A DNA stretch of 64,000 nt from Candidatus Nanoarchaeia archaeon (GTDB taxonomy: Archaea > Nanobdellota > Nanobdellia > Woesearchaeales > UBA10216): assembly GCA_028279045.1 (NCBI GenBank), contig JANQSZ010000023.1, positions 248 through 64,247 on the forward strand, written 5' to 3'. Position numbers and translations under genes: made by a program. The notes beneath the pieces are model-generated. The model had not been told where the DNA came from and made no database searches. It saw nothing but the letters and a program-made list of their open reading frames with translations. Shown here piece after piece: positions 21,622 to 64,000 of this stretch (the stretch's first letter is position 1; each line of letters opens with the position of its first letter).

Positions 21622-21655
21622 CGCTTAAAAACACGTTACTTACTCTAAACAGCAT

Positions 21656-42030: not shown

Positions 42031-42840
42031 ATGGAGTTTCCGGTAAAGAAACCTGGTCCACAGAACTTAGGCAAGTACCCTAAGGAAGAGCTGGATCTTG
42101 CATACAAATTCGCAAAGCAAGCGTATGATGAATTTGGCGATATTGTCAAAGCCATCGTGCTCTTCGGCTCTGCAGCCAGAAATGCAGCAAAGCCAACCGG
42201 AGATATTGATATTCTCATTATTGTTGATGACGTTACTATTGATTTTTCCCGCGATATTGTAGAAACATATCGCATCATTACACAGAAACTTGTTGCAGAT
42301 ATCAGTCCGCGCCTCCACGTCACAACATTAAGAATCACTTCGTTCTGGGAGTATGTACGCGCTGGTGATCCTGTCGCAATTAACGTATTGCGGGATGGTA
42401 TCGCACTCCTCGACACCGGTTTCTACGACCCACTCCGCTCATTGTTAGCACGAGGCCGTATCAGGCCAACTAACGAAGCGATCTGGACATATTTTAGCCG
42501 TGCTCCGAAGACATTAAACAATTCTCGTTGGCACATTATGCAAGCTACACTTGATTTGTACTGGGCTGTCATAGATTCTGCCCATGCAGCGTTAATGGCA
42601 CAGGGCGAGACACCACCAAGTCCGGAACACGTAGCAGATATGCTCGAGGAAAAACTTGCAAAGAAGAAACTCATCGGCAAGAAAGAAGCAGATATCATGC
42701 GAAAGTTCTACAAGCTCCAAAAAGACATTATGTATCGTAATGTCAAGATCATTACCGGTCAAGAGTACGAAGATTATCTGAAAGATGCAGAGGCATTTGT
42801 AAAGGCAGTCGAAGCATTCATTAATGATAAGAAAAAGTAG
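42031..42840 (+). CDS. nucleotidyltransferase-domain protein (minimal NTase fused to C-terminal helical HEPN/KNTase-like domain)
   Basis: Polymerase-beta-like motif GSAARNAAKPTGDIDILII and a second acidic residue (DD) at the N-terminus. The C-terminal alpha-helical domain carries an R-x-H segment (NSRWHIMQATL). Confidence 0.6.
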   Translation: MEFPVKKPGPQNLGKYPKEELDLAYKFAKQAYDEFGDIVKAIVLFGSAARNAAKPTGDIDILIIVDDVTIDFSRDIVETYRIITQKLVADISPRLHVTTLRITSFWEYVRAGDPVAINVLRDGIALLDTGFYDPLRSLLARGRIRPTNEAIWTYFSRAPKTLNNSRWHIMQATLDLYWAVIDSAHAALMAQGETPPSPEHVADMLEEKLAKKKLIGKKEADIMRKFYKLQKDIMYRNVKIITGQEYEDYLKDAEAFVKAVEAFINDKKK

Positions 42841-45921: not shown

Positions 45922-46209
45922 ATGAGTGTAATAGAACCGCAAAGGATACCTTTAACAGAAGTAATAAGAGAAATCGAACGCGATCAAATACCAATGACTG
46001 AACCAGCAGAACAGTTTCTCAGCAGCGTTAACCCAGATGACTATACCTTAGATGCCTACAATGCATCATCTACCAGCATCCGGGATGTCAAGATAGCAAG
46101 GCTAAACAACAATAGTGTCAGACCAGTAGGATCACTCATCTACTGGAGAGGACGCGTAAGCTACATGCCAAGACAATGCGACCAGAAATATACAACCAAG
46201 GGCAGCTAA
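45922..46209 (+). CDS. hypothetical protein (N-terminal part of a possibly frameshifted gene)
   Basis: 95-aa ORF whose 3' end overlaps the next ORF by 34 nt in a different frame. Confidence 0.35.
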   Translation: MSVIEPQRIPLTEVIREIERDQIPMTEPAEQFLSSVNPDDYTLDAYNASSTSIRDVKIARLNNNSVRPVGSLIYWRGRVSYMPRQCDQKYTTKGS

Positions 46210-46568
46210 TCGCAATTGACCCATACATTAGTACACATCTGCAAGCACTTCATCACGACCTCCAGCAGCCAGATCCAGAAAAACATCTGCTGAGAGGTGC
46301 GTGCAAAGAATTTTCAGTTGACCCAGATAGTTTGGATATCTTACTAGGCTTGAACAATATTAAAGACTGGCAAATACTGACAAAAAGAAAGCCAGGACGT
46401 GAATACACAGGAGTTCTACCCGGGTCCGATCTTTGTGTCGGAGGCAACATTAAGGAAGCGATTGTTATGGATTATGATGGCGAAGATATTGGATTCGTTA
46501 CTCACAAAGACGGAGCATTGCATTTCACACGAATTACAGAACCGTTAACGTACGGCAACGAATACTAA
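46176..46568 (+). CDS. hypothetical protein (C-terminal part of a possibly frameshifted gene)
   Basis: 130-aa ORF. See the previous entry. Confidence 0.35.
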   Translation: MRPEIYNQGQLIAIDPYISTHLQALHHDLQQPDPEKHLLRGACKEFSVDPDSLDILLGLNNIKDWQILTKRKPGREYTGVLPGSDLCVGGNIKEAIVMDYDGEDIGFVTHKDGALHFTRITEPLTYGNEY

Positions 46569-47037: not shown

Positions 47038-47457
47038 TTATCGACAAATTGCAGGATCGCCAACGCATGGCTTGCCGTAAATCGGAATAACACTGCCTTC
47101 ATCATCCCGTAACGAAATAACGAAGTCTTCGTCCACACCAAGCTGTTGCTTGAGCGAATTGTAATCAGATTGCGCAAATTTTTCTAATCGCAGCGGATCA
47201 ATTTGATTATTTATCACAAATCCAATGCTATTCTCCGTCGGACTAGAGAGTGCAATCATATTGATGATACTTTCATCTTGTTGACGTGATTGCTCCGATG
47301 ATGCGAGGTCAAACAAAAATAACAACACCAAAATGACACCGAATGCAATCACAACATTGTATTTGTCAGAGTGCTTGTTGTAATGCTCAACATGCGCAGC
47401 GCGCTTTGTTGTTTTCTTTGCTGTTCTCTTCGCTGTCCGTTTCTTAGCTCGTGCCAT
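47038..47457 (-). CDS. hypothetical single-pass membrane protein with basic N-terminus
   Basis: 139 aa. N-terminus MARAKKRTAKRTAKKTTKRAAH, then one TM helix. Confidence 0.4.
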   Translation of the reverse strand: MARAKKRTAKRTAKKTTKRAAHVEHYNKHSDKYNVVIAFGVILVLLFLFDLASSEQSRQQDESIINMIALSSPTENSIGFVINNQIDPLRLEKFAQSDYNSLKQQLGVDEDFVISLRDDEGSVIPIYGKPCVGDPAICR

Positions 47458-50400
47458 TAGTCAAACACATCAATTACTAATTTGATCAGTTCTCCTTCGT
47501 ACCAAACATCACGCGTTACTCGCACGGAGTTCGCAGCGTCAATTTCTGCTTCTGCTGGAACTTCTTGCGGCGTATATGGTACACCTGTACAACATTGTAC
47601 TTCTTCTCCGCCAGGGTAATCAAATCTGAAGTCTTTTTGTTGATCATTACACAATTGCATCACCGTCGTGTCAAAGAAGTTACAATTGTTTACTCCTTGA
47701 CATACTGGATGACAGGTATTGTCTGACGCAAACGTACAGTCTGATTCACATTCAGACGGTCCGACGCCCATAGTGTCATCGTGTTGCACATTCTCGAATG
47801 GTCCAACTAAAATTGCTCCCGATACAGTGTTAGTGTACGGTGATCGTGAAAAGACTAAGTTATATGTCGAGTCATCGTCAACAACCAGCACATAATCTCC
47901 ATTCGAATCAGTAAACGTAATGAATCCTGTTGATTCTGCTTGCACACGCACATTAGCAATTGGCAAGCCTGAGTTGAAATCAGTTATTTGTCCGTAAATA
48001 CTTCCGACAGTTCCGCCCCAAACTCCTGGACTTGCTGATCGACATACTTCTTGTCTGCCGCTATCGCCAGTTAACACATCTTGGTATGATGCTTGATAAT
48101 TAGTCTGGATAACACCGTCAGTTCGTGAGTTCTTTAGTGCTTCCTTGATGCATGTTTCTGATGCTGATCCGCCACCGCATGCTTCTCGAGCAATGTCATC
48201 AACACTTCGGTAACATTGTCCGCCGAACACACAATCTGAAACACGTAAACAACATGCTTCGTCATCACTGTCTTCACAAATTTCGTTTGTTGGTGGCGTT
48301 GCACCGCCGAGGTCTCCATCAAATGGTCCGTCAAGAGGTTGAGTGTTATGTGCAGGTGTTTCACATGCAGATTCGTCTACAGGCTTAAGCCATTGGAATC
48401 TATGAACGTTTTCATCCTGGTCGTCTCCACAACAGAGTCCAGGACTTCCGTCGTGATCAGGAATACCGTACTTCAATTCAATACCGCCAAGTCCTGCACT
48501 TGCCGCAGCACAGGTGTTACACGCTTGCGCATTACCCGTCGAGTCAGGATCGTGTACTGAGGAAGTACAACTTTCAAGTATACCGTTTCCGTTGAGATCT
48601 GTAAGATGATACTCAATATAATCACAGCCACCAGCAGTTCCACAATCAGCAGCGTTTTGACAAGCGTCAGTACCTCCGCCACCAGCTGCAACAGCACCAC
48701 AGGCACCTGCACCGCACGAGCCAATCAGACCTGGTGTACACGTACTGTCTGGTTGCGAAGGATCGTTACCTGGTGAACCGTCAGGATCTGTTCCAGCCAC
48801 ATCCTGATATTCACAATCAACATTTGATGTTGCACAGTTAAGGCCAGATGCAAATGTTTCTGTTACCGTATCACCGTCTAAACAACTGTCAGCAACTGCT
48901 ACGGAAACACAGTTTCCAGCAACGCAAGCTCCTGTGTAATCTTGACAAGTTCCGTAGGTTCCTGGGGCATTTCCACTGTCTGGGTTATTATCGTATGAAT
49001 TGTAAATAGGATCTGTTGCGCAGTTTTCTGCAGCGAGTACTATAACATCACACTGGCCAGATCCGACATTACAATAGTTGTCATGATTTTCTCTATCAGA
49101 GCCAATACAGGTCCAGCCGTCGCCAATATCACAATTGGTTGATACGGCTATTTGCGTATCACAAAAACCTGTTTGACCACCGTTGCAAAAGTATTCATAT
49201 TCTTCAGAGGTCTGTCCATTGCATTGAAAGAAGTTTGCTTGATTAGTACATGATGAATCACAGGTTACACAATCAGGTGCACACGAGCCAACGGTCTCCG
49301 GTCCTTCACAAACACCGTCACCGCAGTTCGTTTCATCATCATCGTATGGGTCTCCTGCACAGCCAACGTCAGCAAGATCATCATCAAAGTCTCCGTCGTT
49401 GTCAATACCATCATTACATTCTGTCTCACACGATGCTGCATTAATACATCTGTTCTCATCGCCGCCGCCACAATCAGGATCAGCACAAGATCTCGTTTGA
49501 TGTCGGTCATCTACATTACATGTCCAGGCACCACACGCTTGGTTACTCCAACCGCTGCAGGAAGCAGTATTACAAGATCCACCGTCACAATCATTAGGAC
49601 AGGATCCAGCTGTCTCACCAGCCTCACAAATATAGTCATTATCACAACTAGGAGGTGGAGGAGCACATGCTGCATCATTCACACATCTGTTTTCATCACC
49701 GCTTCCACAATCAGGATCTGAACAACTTCTTGATTGATGCCGTTGATCTACACAAGACCAGCCGTCACACGCTTGATTGTTCCAACCGCTACAGGATGCT
49801 GTATTACACGATCCGCCGTCACAATCGCTTGGACAGGAACCAGCTGTCTCACCAGCCTCACAAACATAATCTCCGTCGCAACCAGGAGGACATGCTCCAC
49901 AGTCAGCAGAACACGTTGAACAGGATTCACCACCATTACACGAACCATCACCACACCATGGTGGAGGAGGCGGACAAACACCACAATCAGCAGAACACGT
50001 TGAACATGTCTCACCACCATTACACGAACCATCACCACATCCTGGCGGCGGAGGCGGACAAACACCACAATCAGCAGAACATGATGAGCACGTTTCACCG
50101 CCATTACACGAACCATCAGGACACGACGGCGGAGGAGGTGGTGAATTACAACCAACAGCGCCACCAGGTACTCCCCAACAGCCGTTTCCGTTACAACTCA
50201 AAGCAAAAGATTCTGAACAATCTTGATTTCTCCAGTACAGATCGCCACTACCGTGACAAACAAAACCTTGGGTGGAGGCGCAAGCCCACTCGCAAGATGG
50301 AGTGCAGGCTGATGATCCCGCAAATCCATGATCACAGTCTTCACCAGGGTCCACATCAAAGTCACCACAAATACCTCCACCTACAGGAGGACATCCAGCA

Positions 50401-50744
50401 CAACTCGGCATCATGCTACAATCATGAGGCACTGTATTAACGGCGATACTTCCAAGAGCACATGCACCCCACGGTTCGCAGACTTCCCATACTTCATTGT
50501 TACAAACACGTTCAGGTAGTGCACAGCAGAAATTAGGGGTAAAATAGTGATTACAGATAACTCCTGTGTTTCCTGGCAAGGTACAATCTATACCACCGCT
50601 TATGTGATCAGCTTGAGCTTGTTCAGCGTTAATTGTAAAAAGTATGATAAATAATAGAGAAATACCTATAATACTAACTTGTTTGGTGTGTTGATGCATA
50701 AACTGGAATAACATTATACAATTCCTTTTACGGTAATACTCCAA
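47457..50744 (-). CDS. giant Cys-rich secreted protein with CPPPPP-CGDGSCNGGE-CS-CSADCG repeats and C-terminal carboxypeptidase-regulatory-like domain
   Basis: 1095 aa. N-terminal signal/TM VSIIGISLLFIILFTINAEQAQA. Three tandem copies of CPPPPPxCGDGSCNGGE(T/S)CS(T/S)CSADCG(V/A)CPP and two copies of SCSGW(N/S)NQAC..W.C.(D/V)..RHQ.RSC.DPDCG. C-terminal ...GQITDFNSGLPIANVRVQAESTGFITFTDSNGDYVLVV. Confidence 0.7.
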   Translation of the reverse strand: MEYYRKRNCIMLFQFMHQHTKQVSIIGISLLFIILFTINAEQAQADHISGGIDCTLPGNTGVICNHYFTPNFCCALPERVCNNEVWEVCEPWGACALGSIAVNTVPHDCSMMPSCAGCPPVGGGICGDFDVDPGEDCDHGFAGSSACTPSCEWACASTQGFVCHGSGDLYWRNQDCSESFALSCNGNGCWGVPGGAVGCNSPPPPPSCPDGSCNGGETCSSCSADCGVCPPPPPGCGDGSCNGGETCSTCSADCGVCPPPPPWCGDGSCNGGESCSTCSADCGACPPGCDGDYVCEAGETAGSCPSDCDGGSCNTASCSGWNNQACDGWSCVDQRHQSRSCSDPDCGSGDENRCVNDAACAPPPPSCDNDYICEAGETAGSCPNDCDGGSCNTASCSGWSNQACGAWTCNVDDRHQTRSCADPDCGGGDENRCINAASCETECNDGIDNDGDFDDDLADVGCAGDPYDDDETNCGDGVCEGPETVGSCAPDCVTCDSSCTNQANFFQCNGQTSEEYEYFCNGGQTGFCDTQIAVSTNCDIGDGWTCIGSDRENHDNYCNVGSGQCDVIVLAAENCATDPIYNSYDNNPDSGNAPGTYGTCQDYTGACVAGNCVSVAVADSCLDGDTVTETFASGLNCATSNVDCEYQDVAGTDPDGSPGNDPSQPDSTCTPGLIGSCGAGACGAVAAGGGGTDACQNAADCGTAGGCDYIEYHLTDLNGNGILESCTSSVHDPDSTGNAQACNTCAAASAGLGGIELKYGIPDHDGSPGLCCGDDQDENVHRFQWLKPVDESACETPAHNTQPLDGPFDGDLGGATPPTNEICEDSDDEACCLRVSDCVFGGQCYRSVDDIAREACGGGSASETCIKEALKNSRTDGVIQTNYQASYQDVLTGDSGRQEVCRSASPGVWGGTVGSIYGQITDFNSGLPIANVRVQAESTGFITFTDSNGDYVLVVDDDSTYNLVFSRSPYTNTVSGAILVGPFENVQHDDTMGVGPSECESDCTFASDNTCHPVCQGVNNCNFFDTTVMQLCNDQQKDFRFDYPGGEEVQCCTGVPYTPQEVPAEAEIDAANSVRVTRDVWYEGELIKLVIDVFD

Positions 50745-51180
50745 ATGAGCTTGCTACATATTGCTGATTTCCAATTGGGCCAGCGATGAAAAAGTCACCT
50801 TGAAGTCTCATACCCGGCGTGACGTCTTGGATGAGTACGCGCGCCGTGCCCGTTGCTGCTTGTTGATCAAGATTGTAGATAGGTGCTCCACCAGGACGTT
50901 CAGGTTGTTCGATTCGAATAGTAGCTCCATTATTCTCTAAGACTATAAACTCATTGTTTGCTTCAACAACACTTCCTTCCACAGCAGCACGCCATTGCGT
51001 AATAATAGGATTCAATAGCAAGTCTCGTTCAAGCGGTAAAGTATCTTGAGCTTGAATCTCCTGAACAGGTTGTTCAGATTGCATTCCTTGACCGATTGCA
51101 ATACCAATAACAAACGCAACAATACCTATGGCTACAGCCATAAGTAAGGATTTAGAATTACCTAGTTTAGATGAAATCAT
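50728..51180 (-). CDS. secreted hypothetical protein
   Basis: 150 aa with an N-terminal TM/signal (LLMAVAIGIVAFVIGIAIG). Confidence 0.45.
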   Translation of the reverse strand: MISSKLGNSKSLLMAVAIGIVAFVIGIAIGQGMQSEQPVQEIQAQDTLPLERDLLLNPIITQWRAAVEGSVVEANNEFIVLENNGATIRIEQPERPGGAPIYNLDQQAATGTARVLIQDVTPGMRLQGDFFIAGPIGNQQYVASSFGVLP

Positions 51181-51329: not shown

Positions 51330-52202
51330 TCACTCATGAAACAAAGCAGGATTCACGAAGAACAATGGGACAGGATCAACTTTGGTTCCCCCGATGCTGT
51401 TCGTCACATGAAGGTGCGGGCCGGTGGAGCACGGATCTGTGGTAGCATCTGCTACTCTGGCCACAAGCATCCCTTGCTGAATATTATCACCAGCATTTAC
51501 TTCCCAAAGGTCCACATGAGCGTAATTTTCTATACGTCCATCATTTGTACGTACAGTCAGTAAGCCTGTTGAGCCACCCGGAATACCACAGTAATTATTT
51601 GAGTCAGCATATCCTGCTTGAAGGACACTTCCACCACTCATGGCATGAACCTTCGCACCTTTATTCCCCCTAAGGTCTGCGGCACAAGCCAGCCCGGCAT
51701 TTATGTGCCCCGTACAACCTCTGTCCACGGTGATCTGGCCGGTGAGCGGATACAACAACCCATTCTGTGGTGGTGGAGTCGCAGTAGCGGTTGGCGTAGG
51801 AGTAGGACTTGGTGTAGGCATAGGAGTCGGAGTTGCTGTCGGTCTCGGCGTAGGAGTTGCCGTCGGAGGTTGTGTTGGAGTCGGTGTTGGAGGAATAGAA
51901 GTTGGCGTTGGTGTAGGAACATACGTTGGTGTAGGTTCCGGAGTGTTTGTAGGATCAGGAGTAGGAGAGTATGCTGGTTCAGCCGTAGCTGAAGGTGTTG
52001 CAGATGCAGTGACTGTTGCTTCAAGTGTTGGACTTGCCGTTGGATCAACTGTTGCAGAAGCAGTAGGTTCAGGAACGGGAGTGTCAGTAGGAGTCGCTGT
52101 CGGAGTGGCATTGCTACCAGGCGAGCAAGCTGCAGCAAGATACAGCGCCGTACCAAAAGCCAAGACCTTCATTCTGTGAGGAATAAGATGTTCGAGTCCC
52201 AT
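51330..52202 (-). CDS. M23-family (LytM/lysostaphin-like) metallopeptidase with Thr/Pro-rich linker
   Basis: Signal peptide, about 90 aa of (P/T/A) linker, then an M23 core with HxxxD-like segment (YAHVDLW) and HxH (GPHLHV). Confidence 0.7.
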   Translation of the reverse strand: MGLEHLIPHRMKVLAFGTALYLAAACSPGSNATPTATPTDTPVPEPTASATVDPTASPTLEATVTASATPSATAEPAYSPTPDPTNTPEPTPTYVPTPTPTSIPPTPTPTQPPTATPTPRPTATPTPMPTPSPTPTPTATATPPPQNGLLYPLTGQITVDRGCTGHINAGLACAADLRGNKGAKVHAMSGGSVLQAGYADSNNYCGIPGGSTGLLTVRTNDGRIENYAHVDLWEVNAGDNIQQGMLVARVADATTDPCSTGPHLHVTNSIGGTKVDPVPLFFVNPALFHE

Positions 52203-52221
52203 ACCAGTTTCAACTCAAATC

Positions 52222-52234
52222 TCCTATATAAGCT
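52222..52234 (-). promoter_or_regulatory. TATA box (GCTTATATAGGAG on the minus strand) 23-30 nt upstream of the M23 peptidase ATG
   Basis: AT-rich box at leaderless spacing. Confidence 0.4.
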
Positions 52235-52276
52235 TTTCGGTACTTGATAGTGGTGACATGGATTGTCTATAAAGCA

Positions 52277-53365
52277 CTAAGGAGTCCCAACTTGCTCGTT
52301 CAGTCCAGCATCAGTCAAGTTGTAGTCAGACAGGTGTTGAGCATCAATCTTCAGTCCGTACGCAAACGTGTCTGGCGTTCCCGGCATTCCTCCACCGCCA
52401 GCATCTGTAATACCCACTAAGTAGAACAAGTCGAATGGATCACTCTGGCAGGTATTTGGATGGAAGAAACAATAGTCAACATAACTTTGCATCTCTTCAG
52501 AATTACCATGCTCAAACGGAACCGGATTTACTAAACTCGTAATTCCACAACAAACCGATCCAGTTGTATCATCATAGAATCGCTCAAGATAACTTGGCCC
52601 TTCTTCATCGTAACGATATGCTTGCGTATCAACAAACTCTGCAGTTGCAGACGTATTCCACGTTTCAATATTTGATTCATTAATCTTATTTGTCAAGTCT
52701 TCGCCAAATAAAGTATTCTCTCCGATCATGTACATCGGATCGTCTAATTCTTCAATGTTGAAATGCAACGTCAAGTTAAACGACGTGTTCCAGTACGCAA
52801 CATCTGACGCAACCATAACATGGAACGTCGCATTCACACCAACAGCAAACGGTCCGGTGTCGTTATCTTGAAATAGAATAATATTGAAATCATTATAGTC
52901 GTTAAAGAATGTCGTGTTGATGAACAGGATGTCGGTTGATGCATTTTCAATCTGACGCAACCGGTAAGTCAAGTTATTATCCCTCATGATTGGCGTATCT
53001 TTCAATCCAGCTCCGGTACGTCCAATCAACGCATCAGATTCAACCCCACCAATAGTACCATTCAGCAACACTTCTTCAAAAATATCGTTTAGTTCTTGTC
53101 GATTATTCAAGTAGTTTCCCGTCGAGTTAACATACAACGCAGTTGTTTTCAACGCTGCAATACTGCTATGAATTAATGACCGTTCCAAGTACGCAAACTT
53201 CAAATTTTTCAAGTAATCGTCTGCAGTTTGCACTCTACTTTTAGTAATCGGCACTTTATCTTTTAACGTAACAAATGTCTGCGAACTAAATGCGACAATG
53301 ATGAATCCAACAAGCATGATTGCGATAAACGTAAAGAAAATACCGCGTTTGTTCATTGTTGCCAC
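52277..53365 (-). CDS. pilin-like protein with class III-type N-terminus (minor pilin/pilus-associated), gene 5 of 5
   Basis: 362 aa. N-terminus MATMNKRGIFFTFIAIMLVGFIIVAF (basic, then hydrophobic) and an Asn/Thr-rich extracellular body. Overlaps the upstream gene by 13 nt. Confidence 0.5.
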   Translation of the reverse strand: MATMNKRGIFFTFIAIMLVGFIIVAFSSQTFVTLKDKVPITKSRVQTADDYLKNLKFAYLERSLIHSSIAALKTTALYVNSTGNYLNNRQELNDIFEEVLLNGTIGGVESDALIGRTGAGLKDTPIMRDNNLTYRLRQIENASTDILFINTTFFNDYNDFNIILFQDNDTGPFAVGVNATFHVMVASDVAYWNTSFNLTLHFNIEELDDPMYMIGENTLFGEDLTNKINESNIETWNTSATAEFVDTQAYRYDEEGPSYLERFYDDTTGSVCCGITSLVNPVPFEHGNSEEMQSYVDYCFFHPNTCQSDPFDLFYLVGITDAGGGGMPGTPDTFAYGLKIDAQHLSDYNLTDAGLNEQVGTP

Positions 53366-53847
53366 ACGCGCACCTCCCCGACGAATGGACCCCAGAACAT
53401 TGATTTGTTCGGCGTACCAGAAAGAATAACTTTTGATGAGATCAATAAACCAGAACTGTTTCGCTCAACACCGGTTTCGTACATGATGGCATCATCAACC
53501 CGAACAGAATACCCGTACTGCGGCGGTATTCTTCCAATAGTGATACTTTCAGTAAACGTCTCTGCCAGCGTAAATTCCTCCCGGATGTAAAACTCACCAA
53601 TTTGTTCAAACAATGAATTTTCCAAATTGCGTATGTCACCATCCCGTCGCATTTGTTGAATCTCTGGCGTATTCGTATTCCGTACTGTCTGCGTTGCCAT
53701 TCCCTTAGCAAGGTCATCTGCAAAGAACACCGCTTGTTCCTGTTCCGGTCTATAGGATGTGAGAAATAACAGAAGTAGCAGACCTGCCGCTATGATCACC
53801 GTCGCTATAAACGCGTCCAGTGTCAAAAAATATCCTTTCTTTTTCAT
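53353..53847 (-). CDS. pilin-like protein with class III signal peptide, gene 4 of 5
   Basis: N-terminus MKKKGYFLTLDAFIATVIIAAGLLLLLF. Overlaps neighbours at both ends. Confidence 0.55.
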   Translation of the reverse strand: MKKKGYFLTLDAFIATVIIAAGLLLLLFLTSYRPEQEQAVFFADDLAKGMATQTVRNTNTPEIQQMRRDGDIRNLENSLFEQIGEFYIREEFTLAETFTESITIGRIPPQYGYSVRVDDAIMYETGVERNSSGLLISSKVILSGTPNKSMFWGPFVGEVRVWQQ

Positions 53848-54251
53848 GAACAGGCAAAGTTTCCGATTCGTGCTTTTCCGCTACCAATAGCAGCACGATC
53901 AGGTGAAATATTAATCAGATTACCATCTTCGTCTTGCAGATGGATACAAAAGTCTCCTTTAATTCCGAGTTGTTTCCGTATTTCGTCATACGGCAGATCT
54001 GCAAATTCTTGCAGTCGATCTTTATCGATTTGTTTTCCTTCAATAAATCCAAACGGATCGTCTCCTTCTAACACTTCTGGAATCGTCTCTCCTTCTGCTT
54101 TCAGTTCTTCAACGCGGTTGTTTTGTACTGCAAACGTCAAGAACCACAGTGCTACAATAATTAAAACGACGAAGATGATGATTGCAACGATTGCATCCAG
54201 CGACCACCCTTGTCCGAGCTTGTTCATGGACATTCGCCCCGATTCAAACAA
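53844..54251 (-). CDS. pilin-like protein with class III signal peptide, gene 3 of 5
   Basis: N-terminus MSMNKLGQGWSLDAIVAIIIFVVLIIVALW. Confidence 0.55.
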   Translation of the reverse strand: MFESGRMSMNKLGQGWSLDAIVAIIIFVVLIIVALWFLTFAVQNNRVEELKAEGETIPEVLEGDDPFGFIEGKQIDKDRLQEFADLPYDEIRKQLGIKGDFCIHLQDEDGNLINISPDRAAIGSGKARIGNFACS

Positions 54252-54655
54252 ATGAAGTGTCCACGTTTCTCAATATGATTCATTCCTTTATTCAACACAC
54301 CAGATACGTTCCTTCGCACTGCTTGCACGTACGTCAGTTTGGGCTCTTCAAAATATTCTATTTTAATCTCACTAAAATTACCCGTCCCAATATCACTCGC
54401 GTTAATGAGCGTAAGATTGTAATCCCGACCTCGCAGGGATTTAACCAACGAGAAGTCTCGTGTATACCCATCTTCTGCGCGCATCGCAAGTTCAATTTCT
54501 GAAAATGCGATGAAAGAAACATCTTGCAACAATTCAGCACTTCGACGTTCATGCGTAGCGGCAAGTCTATTGCTCAATGTAAGAAAGAACAGTACTAAAA
54601 TGATAAACATCATCGAGATGATGATGGCGCTTTCGATTGTCGCTTGCCCTTTCAT
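54224..54655 (-). CDS. pilin-like protein with class III signal peptide, gene 2 of 5
   Basis: N-terminus MKGQATIESAIIISMMFIILVLFF (KG-Q-x-T-x-E). Confidence 0.6.
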   Translation of the reverse strand: MKGQATIESAIIISMMFIILVLFFLTLSNRLAATHERRSAELLQDVSFIAFSEIELAMRAEDGYTRDFSLVKSLRGRDYNLTLINASDIGTGNFSEIKIEYFEEPKLTYVQAVRRNVSGVLNKGMNHIEKRGHFICLNRGECP

Positions 54656-55293
54656 CGTCCTTCAAGTGATTGTATAATCTCGACATCTTTTTGTGTAATT
54701 TGACAATCACCGTTGTAGTCGCATTCATTGCAGTTGTCGTAGTCTCCTTGACAACCAGGACCACCACAGTGATTCGTATCTGTGCTATCAATATCAGCTC
54801 CGTTTCCCGACGGATCTAAATTTGTAGAGATAACACATTCATCGTTCATTGATATGATTACAAATGGAAACCGGTTCGGCGTCACCATTGCTTGGATGCG
54901 CGCATTTTTCACACCAGGAGTAACATCTGCTGCATCAAAAGACCCAACCATGTTGATTTGCGATGGAAACGCGTGATCGTTAACAACTTCTCCAACCCGA
55001 TGCGCAATGACAAATTCATTAATGCGCGGGTCTGTAGTCCAGTCAGTAAGTATTTCCATACTCTCAACATTGTCTGGAAGTGATTGTGTTAACGTTATTC
55101 TGGACGGCGAACCTTGATAGTACACTAATTCGCCGGTATTAACAACTTCTCTACCGAAGGAGAAGATCTGATCGCTCGATATTCTCTCATTCTGATTATC
55201 AGCAAAACGATAGAACGTATAAATTGTTGGTACGAGCACAAGAAGTATGATAGACGCTACCATTAAGTATTCAAGTGAGGATTGAGCTTTCAT
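54652..55293 (-). CDS. archaeal pilin, EppA-substrate type (QxSxEYL motif), gene 1 of 5
   Basis: N-terminus MKAQSSLEYLMVASIILLVLVP is a textbook DUF361-type class III signal peptide. Confidence 0.65.
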   Translation of the reverse strand: MKAQSSLEYLMVASIILLVLVPTIYTFYRFADNQNERISSDQIFSFGREVVNTGELVYYQGSPSRITLTQSLPDNVESMEILTDWTTDPRINEFVIAHRVGEVVNDHAFPSQINMVGSFDAADVTPGVKNARIQAMVTPNRFPFVIISMNDECVISTNLDPSGNGADIDSTDTNHCGGPGCQGDYDNCNECDYNGDCQITQKDVEIIQSLEGR

Positions 55294-55297
55294 CGTT

Positions 55298-55324
55298 CTA
55301 AAAAAAAGAAAAGGAAAAAAAAGA
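55298..55324 (-). terminator. oligo-T tracts (on the minus strand) between the major pilin gene and the minor pilin operon
   Basis: Plus-strand A-rich run CTAAAAAAAAGAAAAGGAAAAAAAAG is T-rich on the minus strand directly after the major pilin stop. This could attenuate read-through into the minor pilins. Confidence 0.4.
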
Positions 55325-55326
55325 AA

Positions 55327-55860
55327 TTACTGTTCGATGTCTCCGAGGATCTGACCATTCATTGTGTGTGTGAATGAGTCAGTCGAGTCAGATGCATACC
55401 AGCCAATGGTAATGTCGAACTTCTGCTTACCAGTTCCAACCAAAGTAGCGGTTAGACCACAAGTGTCTAGTGTAAGGTCTGCGGTACCTCCGTTAGGAAT
55501 GTACTTACCCCATTTAGCACCGAAGTCTTGGGTTGCATTAGCTTCTCCGTTACCGAAGTCGTTGTTACATGTTACTCCAACTTCTGCATCTTGGCTTGTT
55601 ACTGTAACAGTATCAAGGATGATTCCTTCACCCATACCGTTTTGTAATAACAAGTATATCTCGTCTGCACTTGCATCAAGTTTGTAGTCATTACAAGCTA
55701 CTCCTTGTTGTAGTTCACAACGATCTGGTAAAAGCGTCTCCGGACTTAGTACACCAAAGTAAGCCAAAGCTCCAATGACAACTAAAACCACGAGAATAGC
55801 CCAACCATAGGTCATTAAGAACTCCATAGCTGCCTGACCACGTTTTAGTCCTTTTAGCAT
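55327..55860 (-). CDS. archaeal type IV major pilin candidate (class III signal peptide, QAAMEF motif)
   Basis: 177 aa. N-terminus MLKGLKRGQAAMEFLMTYGWAILVVLVVIGALAYFGV. The mature domain is homologous to the N-terminal domains of the giant proteins at 15920-21621. Confidence 0.75.
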   Translation of the reverse strand: MLKGLKRGQAAMEFLMTYGWAILVVLVVIGALAYFGVLSPETLLPDRCELQQGVACNDYKLDASADEIYLLLQNGMGEGIILDTVTVTSQDAEVGVTCNNDFGNGEANATQDFGAKWGKYIPNGGTADLTLDTCGLTATLVGTGKQKFDITIGWYASDSTDSFTHTMNGQILGDIEQ

Positions 55861-55989
55861 TATATCACCTTCTTTTTTATAGTAATGAATATACTAATTC
55901 GTATACCTATCGTGCTTTTCCTATTTAAACCTTGTGGTTTTTAAACAGAAGTAGAACTAGAAGCCAACTTAAAAACGCAAAAGAACGAT

Positions 55990-56100
55990 TTACAGTGCCA
56001 TCCAGCGCCGTGCAATTTCTCGAGCTTCATCAACACTTGTTGCTGGGCTCGTCTCTAAAATTCTATCAGTAAGCTCAGTTAACCTATCCATCTTGTCCAT
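55990..56100 (-). CDS. possible small protein (36 aa)
   Basis: Unlisted ORF MDKMDRLTELTDRILETSPATSVDEAREIARRWMAL in the 320-nt divergent intergenic region. Support is weak. Confidence 0.2.
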   Translation of the reverse strand: MDKMDRLTELTDRILETSPATSVDEAREIARRWMAL

Positions 56101-56181
56101 TTTACCACCCCTGGTATCTGCATTTTAATGCAACATTCAATATTTAAACCTTCCTGTCCCATATAAACGAAAACCTTATAT

Positions 56182-57498
56182 ATGACACCATTGGAAAGTG
56201 ACGTTATGTCTAAGAATGCAGAACGCTGGGCACGTATGGACGCACGCAGAGAAGAAGCGACAGCTACTCATGGCAGTATCGAATACATGGATCTTGAGAA
56301 GCAGTGGCAATATACCAAAGGACACATTGGAGATTTCAGCCACATTGCAAAAAACAAACTAGAGAGTGCAGGATTGATTACCGCTGCTTACGGAACACTT
56401 GGCGTTGCACGATTAAAGCGCGTGAAGCCAAAAGACGTTGTAAAGGTACTAGGACTGGGCGGCATAGGTCTTGCAGCAGCAATATGGGTATCGTCAACAG
56501 GGCCAGACCGGGAGCCATCATCGTCACTCATCCAGGCAATTGCAACAGAAACACCTCAACCTAATTATGCTTCTGAAGTCGTTGAAACACCTACCCCGCC
56601 AAATGAAGGTCCAACATTAGAAAGCATTGCATCACAATCACTCAACGAACAATTCAGAAATCCTGGTTCCTTCTTACAATATATTGGTAACGATCTTGCA
56701 GAAGCAAATGGTATTGACGATGTCTTGTTTGGACAGAACGTTGAAAACACATCACGTTTCTTCGGTCTCGAAATCAGTTCAGAAAATGTGCGGACCGGTG
56801 ACATTCTCTATTTATTTGATCCTAACCGAGCGCCGCGTGTTGCAAGTGTTGCAAACACGTTTGCAGTTGTTGACAACGACCACGGCTACATTCTTGATGA
56901 CAACAACACTGTTCAACTACTTCCTTTAGAAGACATCACACAAGAAAACACAATTCTCAGAGTGCGTCGTCCAAATATCGGCGCAGTGAATGCAGTTACT
57001 ATTCCAGATTCTGTAATTAGTGATAAAGCATTTTATGATAACGGATTTGAAGAAGCAGATATTATTGATTACACTTCAAGCGGACACCCCATTCTAAAAA
57101 TTCCGTTCATGTACGTGCAAGACATCGAAGAGGTTGCAGGTATCACCGGAATTGATTGGGAATACATCGCAGCAATCTGGAATGTTGAATCAAGATTTGA
57201 TAGGAACGCGCATAACGCAGCAACAAATGATTGGGGATTGCCACAAGGGAATATCAGCACATTACGATTCTTCCTGGAAACAGGAATTTACACAGGTCCC
57301 GATGGTGCAACCAGCGTCGCTGATTCGCTAAGAGAGTCTCGGCCAGCAGCTGGGTTTACTGCAGTGCACATTCTGAATGCTTTAGGCAGACAGCCAGAAA
57401 ACGGAGATGCAGCGCAAGTGTTTACAAATTACAATGGTGCTGACACCCATATTGATCGTTATCTCGATGCCATGGATAAATACCTTGAAGCTCAGTAA
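56182..57498 (+). CDS. membrane-anchored protein with C-terminal lytic transglycosylase (SLT/GH23 lysozyme-like) domain
   Basis: 438 aa. N-terminal TM VVKVLGLGGIGLAAAIWVSS, Pro/Thr linker, and C-terminal AAIWNVESRFDRNAHNAATNDWGLPQGN matching the SLT signature (ES.F...A.S..GA.GLMQ). The true start may be the second Met at 56206, given the TATA at 56177-56184. Confidence 0.55.
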   Translation: MTPLESDVMSKNAERWARMDARREEATATHGSIEYMDLEKQWQYTKGHIGDFSHIAKNKLESAGLITAAYGTLGVARLKRVKPKDVVKVLGLGGIGLAAAIWVSSTGPDREPSSSLIQAIATETPQPNYASEVVETPTPPNEGPTLESIASQSLNEQFRNPGSFLQYIGNDLAEANGIDDVLFGQNVENTSRFFGLEISSENVRTGDILYLFDPNRAPRVASVANTFAVVDNDHGYILDDNNTVQLLPLEDITQENTILRVRRPNIGAVNAVTIPDSVISDKAFYDNGFEEADIIDYTSSGHPILKIPFMYVQDIEEVAGITGIDWEYIAAIWNVESRFDRNAHNAATNDWGLPQGNISTLRFFLETGIYTGPDGATSVADSLRESRPAAGFTAVHILNALGRQPENGDAAQVFTNYNGADTHIDRYLDAMDKYLEAQ

Positions 57499-61292: not shown

Positions 61293-61631
61293 ATGAAACA
61301 AGTCATCCTAGCACGGCAAGATCTGAAGCTTCCAAAGGGCAAATTAGCTGTCCAGGTAGCGCATGCAGCGGTTATCGCTGTAGAAAAGTGCTCCCAGGCT
61401 GATTACAATGCCTGGAGTAATGAAGGCAGCAAGAAAGTTGTTCTCAAAGTAGCTGACGAAAAAGAACTTCTGGAATACAAGCGAAAAGCAGGGCAAAAGA
61501 AACTCCCTCTTGCACTGATCACAGATGCCGGCAAAACAGTCATAGCTCCTGGCACGAAAACAGTACTTGCCATCGGCCCTGCAGAAGATGACGTTATTGA
61601 TTCTTTAACTGGCCATCTCAAGATGGTTTAG
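61293..61631 (+). CDS. pth2: peptidyl-tRNA hydrolase, archaeal/eukaryotic Pth2 type
   Basis: 112 aa with LKLPKGKLAVQVAHAAV, PGTKTVLAIGP and TGHLKMV matching PTH2. Confidence 0.8.
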   Translation: MKQVILARQDLKLPKGKLAVQVAHAAVIAVEKCSQADYNAWSNEGSKKVVLKVADEKELLEYKRKAGQKKLPLALITDAGKTVIAPGTKTVLAIGPAEDDVIDSLTGHLKMV

Positions 61632-62665
61632 AACAGGAAGAATCCTGAAAAGAAGATTCCTGCCACAGATACCATTCCTAGATAAACAACCTGTGAAGAA
61701 ATCAAAAAGATAGGGAAGTATTTCATTCCTCCTCGTACAGATCCTGTGCTGATGATAGACACAATAGCAGCCGAGAAAAACGACATCGTTGCTAATGATA
61801 AATGTGAAAATTGTTGAAATACCCCAATATCAATTTCAAAATCTGAAAAATTTATAGGGAGCAAGTCTGCTGCCGATGCACCAGTTCCGATTTTATCCGC
61901 AAATCCTTGTACAATTTGCACAAAGAAGTACGAAAGCGTAAACAGTAGTGGCGCTACAACCACGACAATTGCAAACAAAAAGATAACGTACGTCAGATTT
62001 GTGGCTCGCATGTCTTCTTTGAGCTCTCTCGTCTCTTCCAGGTTCTCAACAACACGATCAATCAGATCAGCGACTTTCCCGCCACTTCGAATTCCTTCGA
62101 TAATCAAGTCAAATGATCGCCGCATAAGAGGTGAATTGTACTTCATAGTAAACTCTCGCAGCGCTTCATCCACATCCTGGCCAGTCATAACTCTTTTCGC
62201 CGCAAGCCGAACTTCATTCGCCAGCACGCCAAACTCGGGTTTAATCGCGCTCCACAATGCTTTCTCGAAAGGCATTCCACCTTTCAAGTTTTCCGATACA
62301 TAACGAAGAAAATCAGGCAGCACAACTTCCATTTGCTTTGTTCTCTGGAAAATAATCAGTTCAAAGTAGAAGTACAATGTTCCTGTAAAGAGTGATATGG
62401 CTCCGAGCGTTACAAATGTGAAGCTCAGCAACGTTACAACAAAAACTGTAAGTGGGCCTGCCTCCCCTGACGAGATATAGCGAGGATAAACCCATAAAAG
62501 GAAAAACAAGACTGCTGTAAACAAACCACCATAGAAAATCGATCCAAACAAAGAGTACGGAACTTCTGTCATTCCGGTCTTTAGAAAGTACCCACGGAGA
62601 TGCCGTCTGATCAGCTTCGGTACAAACGCTTTTCCGAATTCCTCAGGATACAGTATTTGCCACAT
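61628..62665 (-). CDS. type II secretion system F-domain membrane protein (TadC/FlaJ-like) of the pilus assembly machinery
   Basis: 345 aa. TM helices flank a cytoplasmic T2SSF-like domain (…RLAAKRVMTGQDVDEALREF…IIEGIRSGGKVADLIDRV…). Confidence 0.65.
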   Translation of the reverse strand: MWQILYPEEFGKAFVPKLIRRHLRGYFLKTGMTEVPYSLFGSIFYGGLFTAVLFFLLWVYPRYISSGEAGPLTVFVVTLLSFTFVTLGAISLFTGTLYFYFELIIFQRTKQMEVVLPDFLRYVSENLKGGMPFEKALWSAIKPEFGVLANEVRLAAKRVMTGQDVDEALREFTMKYNSPLMRRSFDLIIEGIRSGGKVADLIDRVVENLEETRELKEDMRATNLTYVIFLFAIVVVVAPLLFTLSYFFVQIVQGFADKIGTGASAADLLPINFSDFEIDIGVFQQFSHLSLATMSFFSAAIVSIISTGSVRGGMKYFPIFLISSQVVYLGMVSVAGIFFSGFFLF

Positions 62666-63525
62666 CAGAGATCCACCGTCGGTCGAATTGATTTAATGAT
62701 AAACACAAAGCTCATTTGAAATACGCCGAGTGCAAACAACACAATATACACCATAGGTGTTGTGATCGTGATACCGACAATACTTGCTAGAATAAACATC
62801 ATCGCTAGTCCTAAGGAAGGCATAACAACTGCGAGGACCATGTAGAACAACAAGACGCTGCTCAGTTTCTTTCCATACGCCTTGATTTCAATTTGCTGTT
62901 CCACAGTAATTGCATGCAACGTATTCCGGAGCGCTTTAGAAACTTCAGTTCCTGTCTTCAGCGCCAACAAAATTTGCCAAATGATTTTCTTGAATCGTTC
63001 TGAACTAGAGTATGTTCTCGCGTTGGAAAGTGCAATTTCCATCGGCGTCCCGGTATTAATCTCGTCAACAATCTCTTTGAAGTATTTACCTGCAACTCCA
63101 TAGCTGTGGGATGCATCGATAAGCGTGTTAAACATCGGTGTTCCTGATTCTAGTTTCACAAGAATGTATCGTCCTGCAAACAGCACATCTTTGTCGATTT
63201 CACGCTGTCTTTTCTTGATGTATCCCGACGGGGTGTTCATCAAAAAGAAGAACGATCCCAAAAAAGAAAAAACACCAACGAGGACAAGCATCACGAGTAC
63301 ATCAAGCGGATGGCGGTCTCGCGAAAACAGAAAGAATGCAATGGCAACCAGTCCGATAGAAAGGAATCCTGCGAGCTGCAGCGATCTCTTCACGAATTGT
63401 TCTGGCGTGTACCGAAGGTGGGCAATACGAATTTTCTTTCGTAACCCAGGGAACTTCAGTGCAATGATGTGTACAATGTCCATTTTACAGCTTGAGTCGT
63501 CCTGTGTAGTACTTTGACATGACAA
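62665..63525 (-). CDS. type II secretion system F-domain membrane protein (TadB/FlaJ-like), separate gene
   Basis: 286 aa with a T2SSF-like domain (…YFKEIVDEINTGTPMEIALSNA…LKTGTEVSKALRNT…). Its start overlaps the stop of the previous gene by 1 nt, so the two single-domain genes resemble a split FlaJ or a TadB/TadC pair. Confidence 0.65.
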   Translation of the reverse strand: MSCQSTTQDDSSCKMDIVHIIALKFPGLRKKIRIAHLRYTPEQFVKRSLQLAGFLSIGLVAIAFFLFSRDRHPLDVLVMLVLVGVFSFLGSFFFLMNTPSGYIKKRQREIDKDVLFAGRYILVKLESGTPMFNTLIDASHSYGVAGKYFKEIVDEINTGTPMEIALSNARTYSSSERFKKIIWQILLALKTGTEVSKALRNTLHAITVEQQIEIKAYGKKLSSVLLFYMVLAVVMPSLGLAMMFILASIVGITITTPMVYIVLFALGVFQMSFVFIIKSIRPTVDL

Positions 63526-64000
63526 GTCCGATCTCGTTCACGTCGTTCATATTTCTGTTCACGAGCCATTTCAGGATGTTTTTCTTCTCTGCCAGGTTTT
63601 TTTCAATGGCAGCTACATCCATTCCCGTGTAGAGTTGTAAAATTTCATACAGTCGCGTTGGTTTAGCAACTTCAACAAACTGGTCCTTCACAGGATTATG
63701 CTGAATAAACACGTGCGGCGAGCTATCTGGCATGATCTCTGCGATTTGCAGTGATCGGCGCTTACCTGTTCGTCGGTTTCTGCTCTGTACTAATATCAAT
63801 CCAATCGACGTCAGCAACGGTTTAGGAATGTCAATTGGTGGATTCGTCAAACGCACAACAGTTTCTTCGGCATTGTTTGCGTGCAGCGTAGCATATACCG
63901 AGTGACCAGTGTGCATCGCTTCAAACAGTACTTCTGCCTCTCGTTTACGACGGACCTCTCCCATAATAATTCGGTCAGGACGCATACGTAATGCGTTAAC
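63485..64000 (-). CDS. type IV pilus/archaellum-family secretion ATPase (FlaI/CpaF/VirB11-like), C-terminal part only; gene continues beyond the window
   Basis: Frame is open to the window edge. RPDRIIMGEVRRKREAEVLFEAMHTGHSVYATLHA is the conserved His-box/C-terminal region of this ATPase family. Confidence 0.8.
   Translation of the reverse strand, partial: VNALRMRPDRIIMGEVRRKREAEVLFEAMHTGHSVYATLHANNAEETVVRLTNPPIDIPKPLLTSIGLILVQSRNRRTGKRRSLQIAEIMPDSSPHVFIQHNPVKDQFVEVAKPTRLYEILQLYTGMDVAAIEKNLAEKKNILKWLVNRNMNDVNEIGLVMSKYYTGRLKL

What the first reader, a model, noticed from the sequence alone, without database searches (positions are those of the whole stretch)
51330..57498. Archaeal type IV pilus gene cluster flanked by two peptidoglycan-hydrolase-like genes (M23 peptidase and GH23/SLT)
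Archaea do not make murein. Yet a secreted M23 endopeptidase (HxxxD-like and HxH motifs) and a membrane-anchored protein with a lysozyme-like SLT motif (ESRFDRNAHNAATNDWGLPQGN) sit on either side of the major and minor pilin genes. Together with the pili and giant adhesins, this suggests a contact-dependent toolkit aimed at a bacterial partner, prey or competitor. Alternatively these are horizontally acquired enzymes that remodel pseudomurein-like or host envelopes. Both genes have their own TATA boxes.
Basis: partly seen in the sequence, partly recalled or inferred. Interest (0 to 1): 0.65.

Follow-up and report, generated by a model that had tools for sequence, protein, structure and literature searches.

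The report
Two murein-hydrolase-like genes beside archaeal pilins
A small Woesearchaeota-like archaeon, which builds no bacterial-type cell wall itself, carries two very divergent surface-anchored homologues of bacterial cell-wall-cutting enzymes next to a pilus gene cluster; this fits the already published idea that such archaea attack or attach to bacteria, and the link to the pili is only circumstantial.

Summary
ORF 51330-52202(-) matches Pfam Peptidase_M23 well above threshold. The C-terminal 143 aa of ORF 56182-57498(+) is an SLT/GH23-like domain: it passes Pfam's cut-off when scanned alone, scores 96% in hhalign against 120 SLT proteins, and has the catalytic Glu-Ser, GLxQ and YNG motifs. 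Six genes with class III (pilin) signal peptides lie between the two. The pilus ATPase and platform genes are 4-8 kb away. Housekeeping genes are archaeal, and the nearest ProRS relatives are Woesearchaeota MAGs.

- The M23 domain has no canonical HxxxD. Ala sits at the His position. Only an H-x9-D arrangement is possible, so catalytic competence is open.
- The nearest syntenic relative has ProRS directly followed by the same pilins, with no SLT gene. The SLT gene is therefore lineage-specific, not a conserved pilus component.

Both genes have no close homologue anywhere searched, and neither has a recognisable wall-binding domain. Each carries the same perfect archaeal BRE/TATA 15-mer 23-24 nt upstream of an ATG, so they look natively expressed.

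Lytic-transglycosylase and M23 homologues in Woesearchaeota/Nanoarchaeota are already published (2015-2025). Verdict: real, moderately interesting, a new member of a known kind.

The parts
51330..52202 (-). 290-aa M23-like surface protein: lipobox-type signal peptide (MKVLAFGTALYLAAA|C), a roughly 120-aa Pro/Thr-rich linker, and a C-terminal M23 domain
   Evidence: ORF; Pfam PF01551 49.4 bits against a cut-off of 28.7; linker is 82% P+T+S+A
51333..51767 (-). M23 domain (residues 146-290). Asp176, His229 (YAHV) and His263-Leu-His265 are present. Ala172 sits at the canonical HxxxD His position. His166 gives H-x9-D. Four Cys.
   Evidence: Pfam 51.8 bits; lysostaphin E 2e-7 with alignment; MAFFT with phage M23 domains; GC 0.50 and codon score -2.9 SD
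52225..52239 (-). BRE/TATA element CGAAAAGCTTATATA, ending 23 nt before the M23 ATG (leaderless-type spacing)
52277..53365 (-). pilin-like protein, 362 aa (MATMNKRG|IFFTFIAIML...)
53353..53847 (-). pilin-like protein, 164 aa
53844..54251 (-). pilin-like protein, 135 aa; orthologue present in L010
54224..54655 (-). pilin-like protein, 143 aa
54652..55293 (-). pilin-like protein, 213 aa; orthologue present in L010
55327..55860 (-). probable major pilin, 177 aa (KRGQAAMEFLMTYGWAILVVLVVIGALAYF); N-terminus nearly identical in L010
55990..56100 (-). unannotated 36-aa ORF with a Shine-Dalgarno-like GGGGTGGT run upstream, between the pilin and the SLT gene; relevance unknown
56168..56182 (+). BRE/TATA element CGAAAACCTTATATA, ending 24 nt before ATG 56206 (Met9 of the ORF). 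The real start is therefore probably 56206.
56182..57498 (+). 438-aa (or 430-aa) type II membrane protein: cytoplasmic N-terminus, one TM helix (residues 85-104), an acidic ectodomain with an unassigned middle domain, and a C-terminal SLT domain. Its 3' end overlaps the convergent ProRS gene by 7 nt.
   Evidence: no homologue in 1.84 billion representative proteins
57067..57495 (+). SLT/GH23-like domain: catalytic Glu336-Ser337, G352-L-P-Q355, N-Y-N-G-A near residue 412
61628..64000 (-). pilus assembly genes: two T2SSF (PilC/FlaJ-like) genes and the C-terminal part of a T2SSE ATPase running off the window

Best explanation
A Woesearchaeota-like DPANN archaeon expresses two lineage-specific, cell-surface-tethered homologues of bacterial peptidoglycan hydrolases from its own archaeal promoters. 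One is a GH23/SLT-type lytic-transglycosylase domain on a single-pass membrane anchor. The other is an M23-type endopeptidase domain held on a long Pro/Thr stalk behind a lipoprotein-type signal peptide. The archaeon is not expected to make murein, so the most likely substrate is the sacculus of a bacterium it touches. The SLT domain would cut glycan strands using Glu336. The M23 domain would cut or bind peptide cross-links. The neighbouring adhesive pili and the giant surface proteins in the window would provide the contact. Shown here: domain identities, motifs, membrane topology, promoters, archaeal context, and absence of the SLT gene from the syntenic relative. Inferred: substrate, activity, and any cooperation with the pili.
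Against: No activity data exist. The M23 domain lacks the canonical zinc-binding His. No wall-binding domain (LysM, SH3, PG_binding) is detectable in either protein. The SLT whole-protein Pfam score is just under threshold. The structure model is poor (pLDDT 57) and was driven by an SLT alignment. Foldseek found nothing at E<=0.001. Only 64 kb of the genome was seen, so the absence of murein or pseudomurein synthesis genes is assumed from what is known of DPANN, not shown. The pilus link rests on adjacency only, and the SLT gene is missing from the syntenic relative.
Confidence: 0.55

Rival explanations
1. One or both domains are non-catalytic derivatives, in particular a degenerate LytM-type M23 domain. 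They would serve as binding or adhesion modules for a partner's wall or for another protein, as EnvC, NlpD and Csd2 do in bacteria.
For: Ala172 replaces the first zinc ligand in gap-free, high-confidence alignments. The residue aligned with the oxyanion Tyr270 of lysostaphin is Cys (with the residue role from PMC9662197). Weak NCBIfam matches include the amidase activators ActS and NlpD and SpoIIQ. The review states that M23 folds lacking catalytic residues act in protein-protein interaction.
Against: Four of the five conserved active-site residues are retained, unlike EnvC/NlpD-type domains. Active M23 enzymes with other His-Asp spacings exist: LasA has H(x)12D and phi29 gp13 has H(x)7D (PMC9662197). 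His166 lies in loop 1 next to the active site in the lysostaphin alignment. The SLT domain keeps every invariant residue.
Confidence: 0.2
2. The enzymes act on the archaeon's own envelope or proteins, not on bacteria. The M23 domain would be a Gly-Gly type protease for surface proteins. The SLT-like domain would act on an endogenous glycan, or help pili pass the S-layer.
Against: GH23 enzymes need a MurNAc-type substrate, and none is known in DPANN. The orthologous pilus locus in L010 works without the SLT gene. Both genes have separate promoters.
Confidence: 0.15
3. The hydrolase genes are bacterial or phage DNA wrongly joined to an archaeal contig, or are chance motif matches.
For: The M23 domain has raised GC (0.50 against 0.437 +/- 0.017) and the second-lowest codon-usage score in the window. 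The best database matches are phage and bacterial proteins at about 30% identity.
Against: Both genes are embedded between archaeal genes, and the SLT gene overlaps ProRS by 7 nt. Both carry the window's archaeal BRE/TATA consensus at leaderless spacing. SLT composition is ordinary, and GC3 of the M23 domain is within 1 SD. An independent Logan assembly contains the same pilin-SLT-ProRS junction. Profile statistics are far beyond chance for M23.
Confidence: 0.03

Closest known systems
Lytic-transglycosylase (GH23/SLT) domain proteins of Woesearchaeota and Pacearchaeota (Castelle 2015/2021 fam00969; Vigneron 2022; the 'LysM+SLT' entries for Woesearchaeales in Strock 2025, Table S2)
   Same: Same host lineage, same catalytic domain family, extracellular location, and the same proposed role in binding or degrading bacterial walls.
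   Different: This protein is small (438 aa, not up to 3,000 aa), membrane-anchored by an N-terminal TM helix, and has no detectable LysM. It has no sequence relative at all by phmmer over 1.84 billion representatives, so it is not a member of those protein families.
Archaeal M23 peptidoglycan hydrolases (zoocin A homologues such as Woldo of Halogranum salarium; four Nanoarchaeia genomes) in Strock et al. 2025
   Same: An M23 domain in an archaeon, exported, interpreted as anti-bacterial.
   Different: Those are modular, with PG_binding_1 or other wall-binding domains. This one has only a lipobox signal and a Pro/Thr stalk, lacks canonical HxxxD, and would not be picked up by their 'catalytic plus binding domain' screen.
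phi29 gp13 tail-tip wall-degrading protein (PDB 3CSQ) and similar phage or secretion-system penetration enzymes (T7 gp16, EtgA)
   Same: A lysozyme-like/LT activity is combined with an M23 endopeptidase to breach murein locally from outside. gp13's M23 domain also has a non-canonical His-Asp spacing.
   Different: Here the two activities are on two separate membrane-tethered proteins of a cell, not on one virion protein. Sequence similarity to gp13 is insignificant.
Degenerate LytM factors (EnvC, NlpD, DipM, Csd2)
   Same: M23 fold with an incomplete metal site.
   Different: Those have lost most ligands and act on bacterial amidases. This domain keeps Asp, HxH and the third His, and an archaeon has no known amidase partner.
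Episymbiotic or predatory ultrasmall bacteria (Saccharibacteria type IV pili; Vampirococcus lytic transglycosylase)
   Same: A reduced-genome epibiont using type IV pili for host contact together with wall-degrading enzymes (papers listed; Vampirococcus comparison in PMC9723730).
   Different: Different domain of life, with an archaeal pilus system. This is analogy only.

Membership tests
Peptidase family M23 (Pfam PF01551 / MEROPS M23) | Profile match above the curated threshold | tested here: met
   49.4 bits (whole protein) and 51.8 bits (domain) against a cut-off of 28.7; lysostaphin E 2e-7
Peptidase family M23 (Pfam PF01551 / MEROPS M23) | HxH motif (catalytic His plus zinc ligand) | tested here: met
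   His263-Leu-His265 aligns with PHLH of lysostaphin and the phage enzymes
Peptidase family M23 (Pfam PF01551 / MEROPS M23) | Conserved His about 30 residues before HxH | tested here: met
   His229 in NYAHVD is invariant in alignment A5
Peptidase family M23 (Pfam PF01551 / MEROPS M23) | H(x)nD motif supplying the first His and the Asp zinc ligands (n=3 in most; 7 in gp13; 12 in LasA) | tested here: inconclusive
   Asp176 is present. The canonical His position is Ala172. His166 gives n=9. Alignment of the N-terminal segment to M23A enzymes puts His166 on LasA His23 but is no better than 21-38% of shuffles. hhalign aligns only the C-terminal half.
Peptidase family M23 (Pfam PF01551 / MEROPS M23) | Zinc-dependent endopeptidase activity on peptidoglycan peptides | not testable with these tools
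   Needs biochemistry
SLT / GH23 family 1 lytic transglycosylases (Pfam PF01464) | Profile match above the curated threshold | tested here: met
   Domain alone scores 23.8 bits against 21.3. In the whole protein it scores 20.2, just below. Independent profile of 120 SLT proteins: hhalign 96.3%, E 1.8e-9; hmmsearch 34.5 bits.
SLT / GH23 family 1 lytic transglycosylases (Pfam PF01464) | Catalytic Glu in an E-S motif at the end of the first long helix | tested here: met
   Glu336-Ser337 aligns with the invariant E and near-invariant S of A4
SLT / GH23 family 1 lytic transglycosylases (Pfam PF01464) | G-L-x-Q and (A)YNxG motifs | tested here: met
   G352-L-P-Q355 lies on the invariant G and Q. N-Y-N-G-A aligns with SYNGG of the Vibrio phage SLT protein; the remaining 119 proteins of A4 were not examined for this motif.
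SLT / GH23 family 1 lytic transglycosylases (Pfam PF01464) | Lysozyme-like fold | tested here: inconclusive
Archaeal type IV pilus locus | Pilins with a class III signal peptide (short basic N-terminus, G/A at -1, then a hydrophobic helix) | tested here: met
   Six consecutive ORFs show it. The major pilin N-terminus is conserved in L010. No Pfam or PDB sequence match.
Archaeal type IV pilus locus | PilB-type ATPase and PilC-type platform protein | tested here: met
   T2SSE at 63485-end and two T2SSF at 61628-63525
Archaeal type IV pilus locus | Prepilin peptidase (PibD/EppA) | tested here: not met
   No such domain appeared among the window ORFs submitted to Pfam (most ORFs of 120 aa or more outside the cluster; ORFs at 11521-11952, 23024-23431 and 46176-46568 were not scanned). 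It may be encoded elsewhere in the genome.
Modular archaeal peptidoglycan hydrolases as defined by Strock et al. 2025 | Catalytic domain plus a recognised cell-wall-binding domain in one protein | tested here: not met
   No LysM, SH3, PG_binding or similar hit in either protein, even at E<=1 and on isolated segments
fam00969 giant LT-domain proteins of Woese-/Pacearchaeota (Castelle et al. 2021) | Sequence membership in that protein family (large proteins, up to 3,000 aa) | tested here: not met
   438 aa. phmmer over 1.84 billion representatives and the word-index search return only the protein itself. This is an indirect test, because family sequences were not compared directly.

The most novel reading that the evidence does not exclude
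The two orphan enzymes and the pilus would form one contact-dependent wall-breaching apparatus of an archaeal epibiont of bacteria. Pili pull the bacterium onto a surface armed with a stalked M23 peptidase that uses a previously undescribed H-x9-D zinc site, and with a membrane-anchored lytic transglycosylase. Both would have evolved beyond recognisable homology to any other sequenced protein.
Probability: 0.12. Interest if true: 0.6.

Novelty: new member of a known kind. Interest (0 to 1): 0.32.

Why it matters
No DPANN-bacterium physical interaction has been demonstrated mechanistically. Surface-tethered murein hydrolases are the most concrete genomic hint that some Woesearchaeota live on or prey on bacteria. 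These two proteins add examples that published screens would miss, because they have no wall-binding domain and no homologues. The true frequency of such enzymes in archaea may therefore be underestimated. If the H-x9-D M23 domain proved active, it would extend the known metal-site variants of that family. The phenomenon itself is already in the literature, and the pilus link is unproven.

Tried and rejected
- Word-index homologue searches with the M23 domain and with the whole SLT protein returned nothing or only the protein itself. The M23 search did not even return the query's own protein, so that index is incomplete.
- An exhaustive phmmer search of the SLT protein returned only itself.
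- Pattern searches of metagenome contigs (M23 domain) and viral contigs (SLT) gave one 29% hit and none, respectively.
- A PDB sequence search with the SLT protein gave only spurious LptB hits.
- Single-sequence AlphaFold of the SLT domain gave pLDDT 35, which is unusable.
- I tested whether the M23 domain belongs to the LasA/beta-lytic (M23A) subfamily. That would make His166 the zinc ligand and Cys258 the conserved disulfide partner.
  - BLASTP aligns Cys-x-STGPHLH with LasA.
  - hhalign and HMM alignments cover only the C-terminal half.
  - The N-terminal match is not better than shuffles.
  - The claim is rejected as unsupported, but not disproved.
- Alignment with phi29 gp13 was uninformative.
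- A LysM-like stretch (GSFLQYIGNDLAEANGID) in the middle domain was suspected by eye, but there is no profile support.
- I looked for mobile-element repeats flanking the SLT insertion and found none of note.
- I scanned the ORFs of the 1.25 Mb of session sequence (the window, Logan contig L001 and the 88 fetched loci) for other SLT or M23 genes. None was found apart from the alignment seed sequences and Logan contig L001, which is a copy of the window's own SLT gene.
- The organism name could not be obtained. The genome is not a GTDB species representative in the collection, and the NCBI record is not retrievable.
Full report
**What is in the sequence.** The interval holds eight ORFs.
- On the minus strand, running from 55860 down to 51330, there are six short ORFs followed by a 290-aa ORF (51330-52202).
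- On the plus strand, divergent from the first of these, is a 438-aa ORF (56182-57498). Its last 7 nt overlap the convergent archaeal-type prolyl-tRNA synthetase gene (TIGR00408, 605 bits).
- The window as a whole is archaeal: class I LysRS, thermosome, SRP54 and an S_layer_C protein.
- The best ProRS relatives, at 50-61% identity, are overwhelmingly Woesearchaeota/Nanoarchaeia MAGs. The genome itself is not among the species representatives searched, so the organism is a fairly isolated Woesearchaeota-like DPANN archaeon.
- GC is even across the window (0.40-0.48).

**The pilus cluster.**
- All six small ORFs begin with a short basic stretch ending in G (often G-Q), followed by a 25-35 residue hydrophobic helix. 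An example is MLKGLKRGQAAMEFLMTYGWAILVVLVVIGALAYF. This is the class III signal-peptide pattern of archaeal type IV pilins.
- No Pfam, NCBIfam or PDB sequence match exists for their globular parts, which is usual for pilins.
- Two T2SSF genes and the start of a T2SSE ATPase lie at 61628-64000. No prepilin peptidase was found among the window ORFs scanned.
- The reading of this as an archaeal type IV pilus cluster is sound.

**The M23 gene.**
- Pfam Peptidase_M23 scores 49.4 bits against a cut-off of 28.7 (E 5e-13), or 51.8 bits for the isolated domain.
- PDB relatives are lysostaphin (E 2e-7), LytM, zoocin A and others. PHROGs gives phage metallo-endopeptidases (E 1.6e-11).
- The protein starts with a lipobox-type signal (MKVLAFGTALYLAAA-C). 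A roughly 120-residue linker that is 82% Pro/Thr/Ser/Ala follows, and then the domain.
- Active-site check:
  - In the gap-free, high-posterior alignment to lysostaphin, INAGLACAADL pairs with INGGMHYGVDF.
  - In a MAFFT alignment with three phage M23 domains, the zinc-binding His of HxxxD is Ala172.
  - Asp176, His229 and His263-x-His265 are conserved.
- The M23 review states that the family motif is H(x)nD, with n=12 in LasA and n=7 in phi29 gp13 (PMC9662197). The query has His166-x9-Asp176.
- In the lysostaphin alignment, His166 falls in loop 1, three residues after the position of the oxyanion Tyr270. It could therefore lie at the active site; this is an inference.
- I tried to tie the N-terminal segment to the LasA subfamily:
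  - LasA, pseudoalterin and 8AF1 sequences were recovered from the PDB.
  - The best ungapped diagonal does put His166 on LasA His23 (shared H-x-N-x-G), but 21-38% of shuffles score as well.
  - Profile alignments cover only the C-terminal half.
- Catalytic competence of this domain is therefore open.

**The SLT gene.**
- In the whole protein, Pfam SLT scores 20.2 bits, just under the 21.3 cut-off. On the isolated C-terminal 143 residues it scores 23.8 bits (E 3.4e-5).
- Three other lysozyme-superfamily models hit the same 30 residues weakly: SLT_2, the Apf C-terminal domain, and a PHROG transglycosylase.
- The only weak tblastn neighbours are proteins of a Vibrio phage and two Streptomyces phages, and all are Pfam SLT proteins.
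- A profile seeded with these retrieved 466 SLT proteins.
- An alignment of 120 of them without the query matches the query at 96.3% probability (E 1.8e-9) in hhalign and at 34.5 bits in hmmsearch. No other ORF hit among the ORFs of the 1.25 Mb of session sequence, apart from the seed phage proteins and Logan contig L001, a copy of the same gene.
- All five invariant residues of that family are present, including the catalytic Glu336 followed by Ser. G-L-P-Q and N-Y-N-G-A correspond to the GLxQ and AYNxG motifs.
- Structure:
  - Prediction without an alignment failed (pLDDT 35).
  - With the SLT alignment it reached pLDDT 57, and above 80 around the catalytic helix and hairpin.
  - Foldseek found nothing at E<=0.001, though nearly all its best hits are lytic transglycosylases.
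  - That model is biased by its alignment, so it counts only as consistency.
- Topology: one TM helix (residues 85-104) preceded by Lys/Arg, which places the SLT domain outside the cell.
- The middle domain (about residues 150-295) and the cytoplasmic N-terminus match nothing.

**Both proteins have no close homologue.**
- The SLT protein has no homologue at E<=0.001 among 1.84 billion representative proteins or in the word-indexed 5.8 billion.
- The M23 domain found nothing in the word index, one 29% hit in metagenome contigs, and roughly 30% hits in phages.
- Origin therefore cannot be traced.
- Composition:
  - The M23 domain has GC 0.50 against 0.437 +/- 0.017, and a codon score 2.9 SD below the mean, but its GC3 is normal.
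  - The SLT gene is ordinary in composition.

**Expression signals.**
- The 8-mer CTTATATA occurs exactly twice in 64 kb, in front of these two genes.
- Extended, the two sites read CGAAAA(G/C)CTTATATA. They end 23 nt before ATG 52202 and 24 nt before ATG 56206 (Met9 of the SLT ORF).
- Looser matches precede other genes (Kazal-domain protein, g159, g568 and g269) and, where the annotated ATG fits, at the same 23-24 nt spacing.
- Both genes thus carry strong native archaeal BRE/TATA promoters for leaderless mRNAs.
- Together with the independent Logan contig that carries the same pilin-SLT-ProRS junction, this rules out contamination. It also suggests that the SLT protein starts at Met9.

**Is the pilus link real?**
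- Locus L010 (Woesearchaeota MAG, ProRS 60% identical) keeps the order ECF-like gene, ProRS, major pilin, second pilin, and further on a third pilin. Only about 85 nt separate ProRS from the pilin gene, and there is no SLT gene.
- In the window, 1.6 kb carrying the oppositely oriented SLT gene and a 36-aa ORF sits at that point, without flanking repeats.
- L010 ends before the position where the M23 gene would be.
- The SLT gene is therefore a lineage-specific insertion (or a loss in L010), not a conserved pilus component. Adjacency is the only evidence for cooperation.

**Comparison with what is known.**
- Murein-type lytic transglycosylase domains in Woese- and Pacearchaeota have been reported repeatedly and read as tools against bacterial hosts or prey (PMC8204110; PMC9723730).
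- Strock et al. 2025 found modular PGHs in about 5% of archaeal genomes, most prominently in Nanoarchaeota. These include M23 in four Nanoarchaeia and LysM+SLT in Woesearchaeales. They showed bacterial killing by a haloarchaeal M23 enzyme (PMC12352652).
- The present proteins are not members of those particular protein families: they have no wall-binding domain and no sequence relatives. They belong to the same kind of thing.
- A useful mechanistic analogue is phi29 gp13. It unites a lysozyme-like domain and a non-canonical M23 domain in one wall-penetrating tail protein.

**Verdict.**
- I rate it a new member of a known kind, with interest about 0.3.

Noticed in passing
window 55990-56100 (-): Uncalled 36-aa ORF (MDKMDRLTELTDRILETSPATSVDEAREIARRWMAL) with a GGGGTGGT Shine-Dalgarno-like run 4 nt upstream. 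It lies in the 321-nt gap between the major pilin and the SLT gene, inside the segment absent from the syntenic relative L010.
   Followed up: partly
window 56182 vs 56206 (+): The SLT ORF probably starts at its ninth codon (ATG 56206). The BRE/TATA ends at 56182, giving the same 24-nt leaderless spacing seen for other genes in the window.
   Followed up: partly
window 47457-50744 (-), repeats at 49439-50138: A 1095-aa Cys-rich surface protein with 84-nt x2.9 and 234-nt x1.8 tandem repeats (GDGSCNGGE-CS-CSADCG-CPPPPP modules) and a CarboxypepD_reg-like C-terminal domain. It overlaps the upstream 150-aa membrane protein gene (50728-51180).
   Followed up: no
window 22710-22828 (-) and 21655-21740 (+): Rfam finds a 119-nt tRNA that ARAGORN misses, probably an intron-containing archaeal tRNA. 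Conversely, ARAGORN's tRNA-Ser(cga) is not confirmed by Rfam at gathering score.
   Followed up: no
window 38941-39675 (-): A protein with a Kazal-type serine-protease-inhibitor domain plus a cupredoxin-like domain, next to an S_layer_C protein (39713-40519). This looked like an unusual domain for an archaeon (judged from memory, not checked).
   Followed up: no
window 14959-15936 (+): FabD-like acyl transferase (Acyl_transf_1), a bacterial-type fatty-acid synthesis gene, in line with reports for Woesearchaeota.
   Followed up: no
window 42031-42840 (+): A nucleotidyltransferase and HEPN domain fused in one ORF (an MNT/HEPN toxin-antitoxin-like module).
   Followed up: no
window 15920-21621 (-), 32204-37447 (-): Three further giant surface-type ORFs (894 aa, 1008 aa with Laminin_G_3, and 1747 aa). 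The window is unusually rich in large extracellular proteins. None contains an SLT or M23 domain by my HMM scan.
   Followed up: partly
tool behaviour: The word-index homologue search with the M23 domain did not return the query's own full-length protein, although that protein is a cluster representative in the same collection. 'No hit' from that tool is therefore weak evidence.
   Followed up: no
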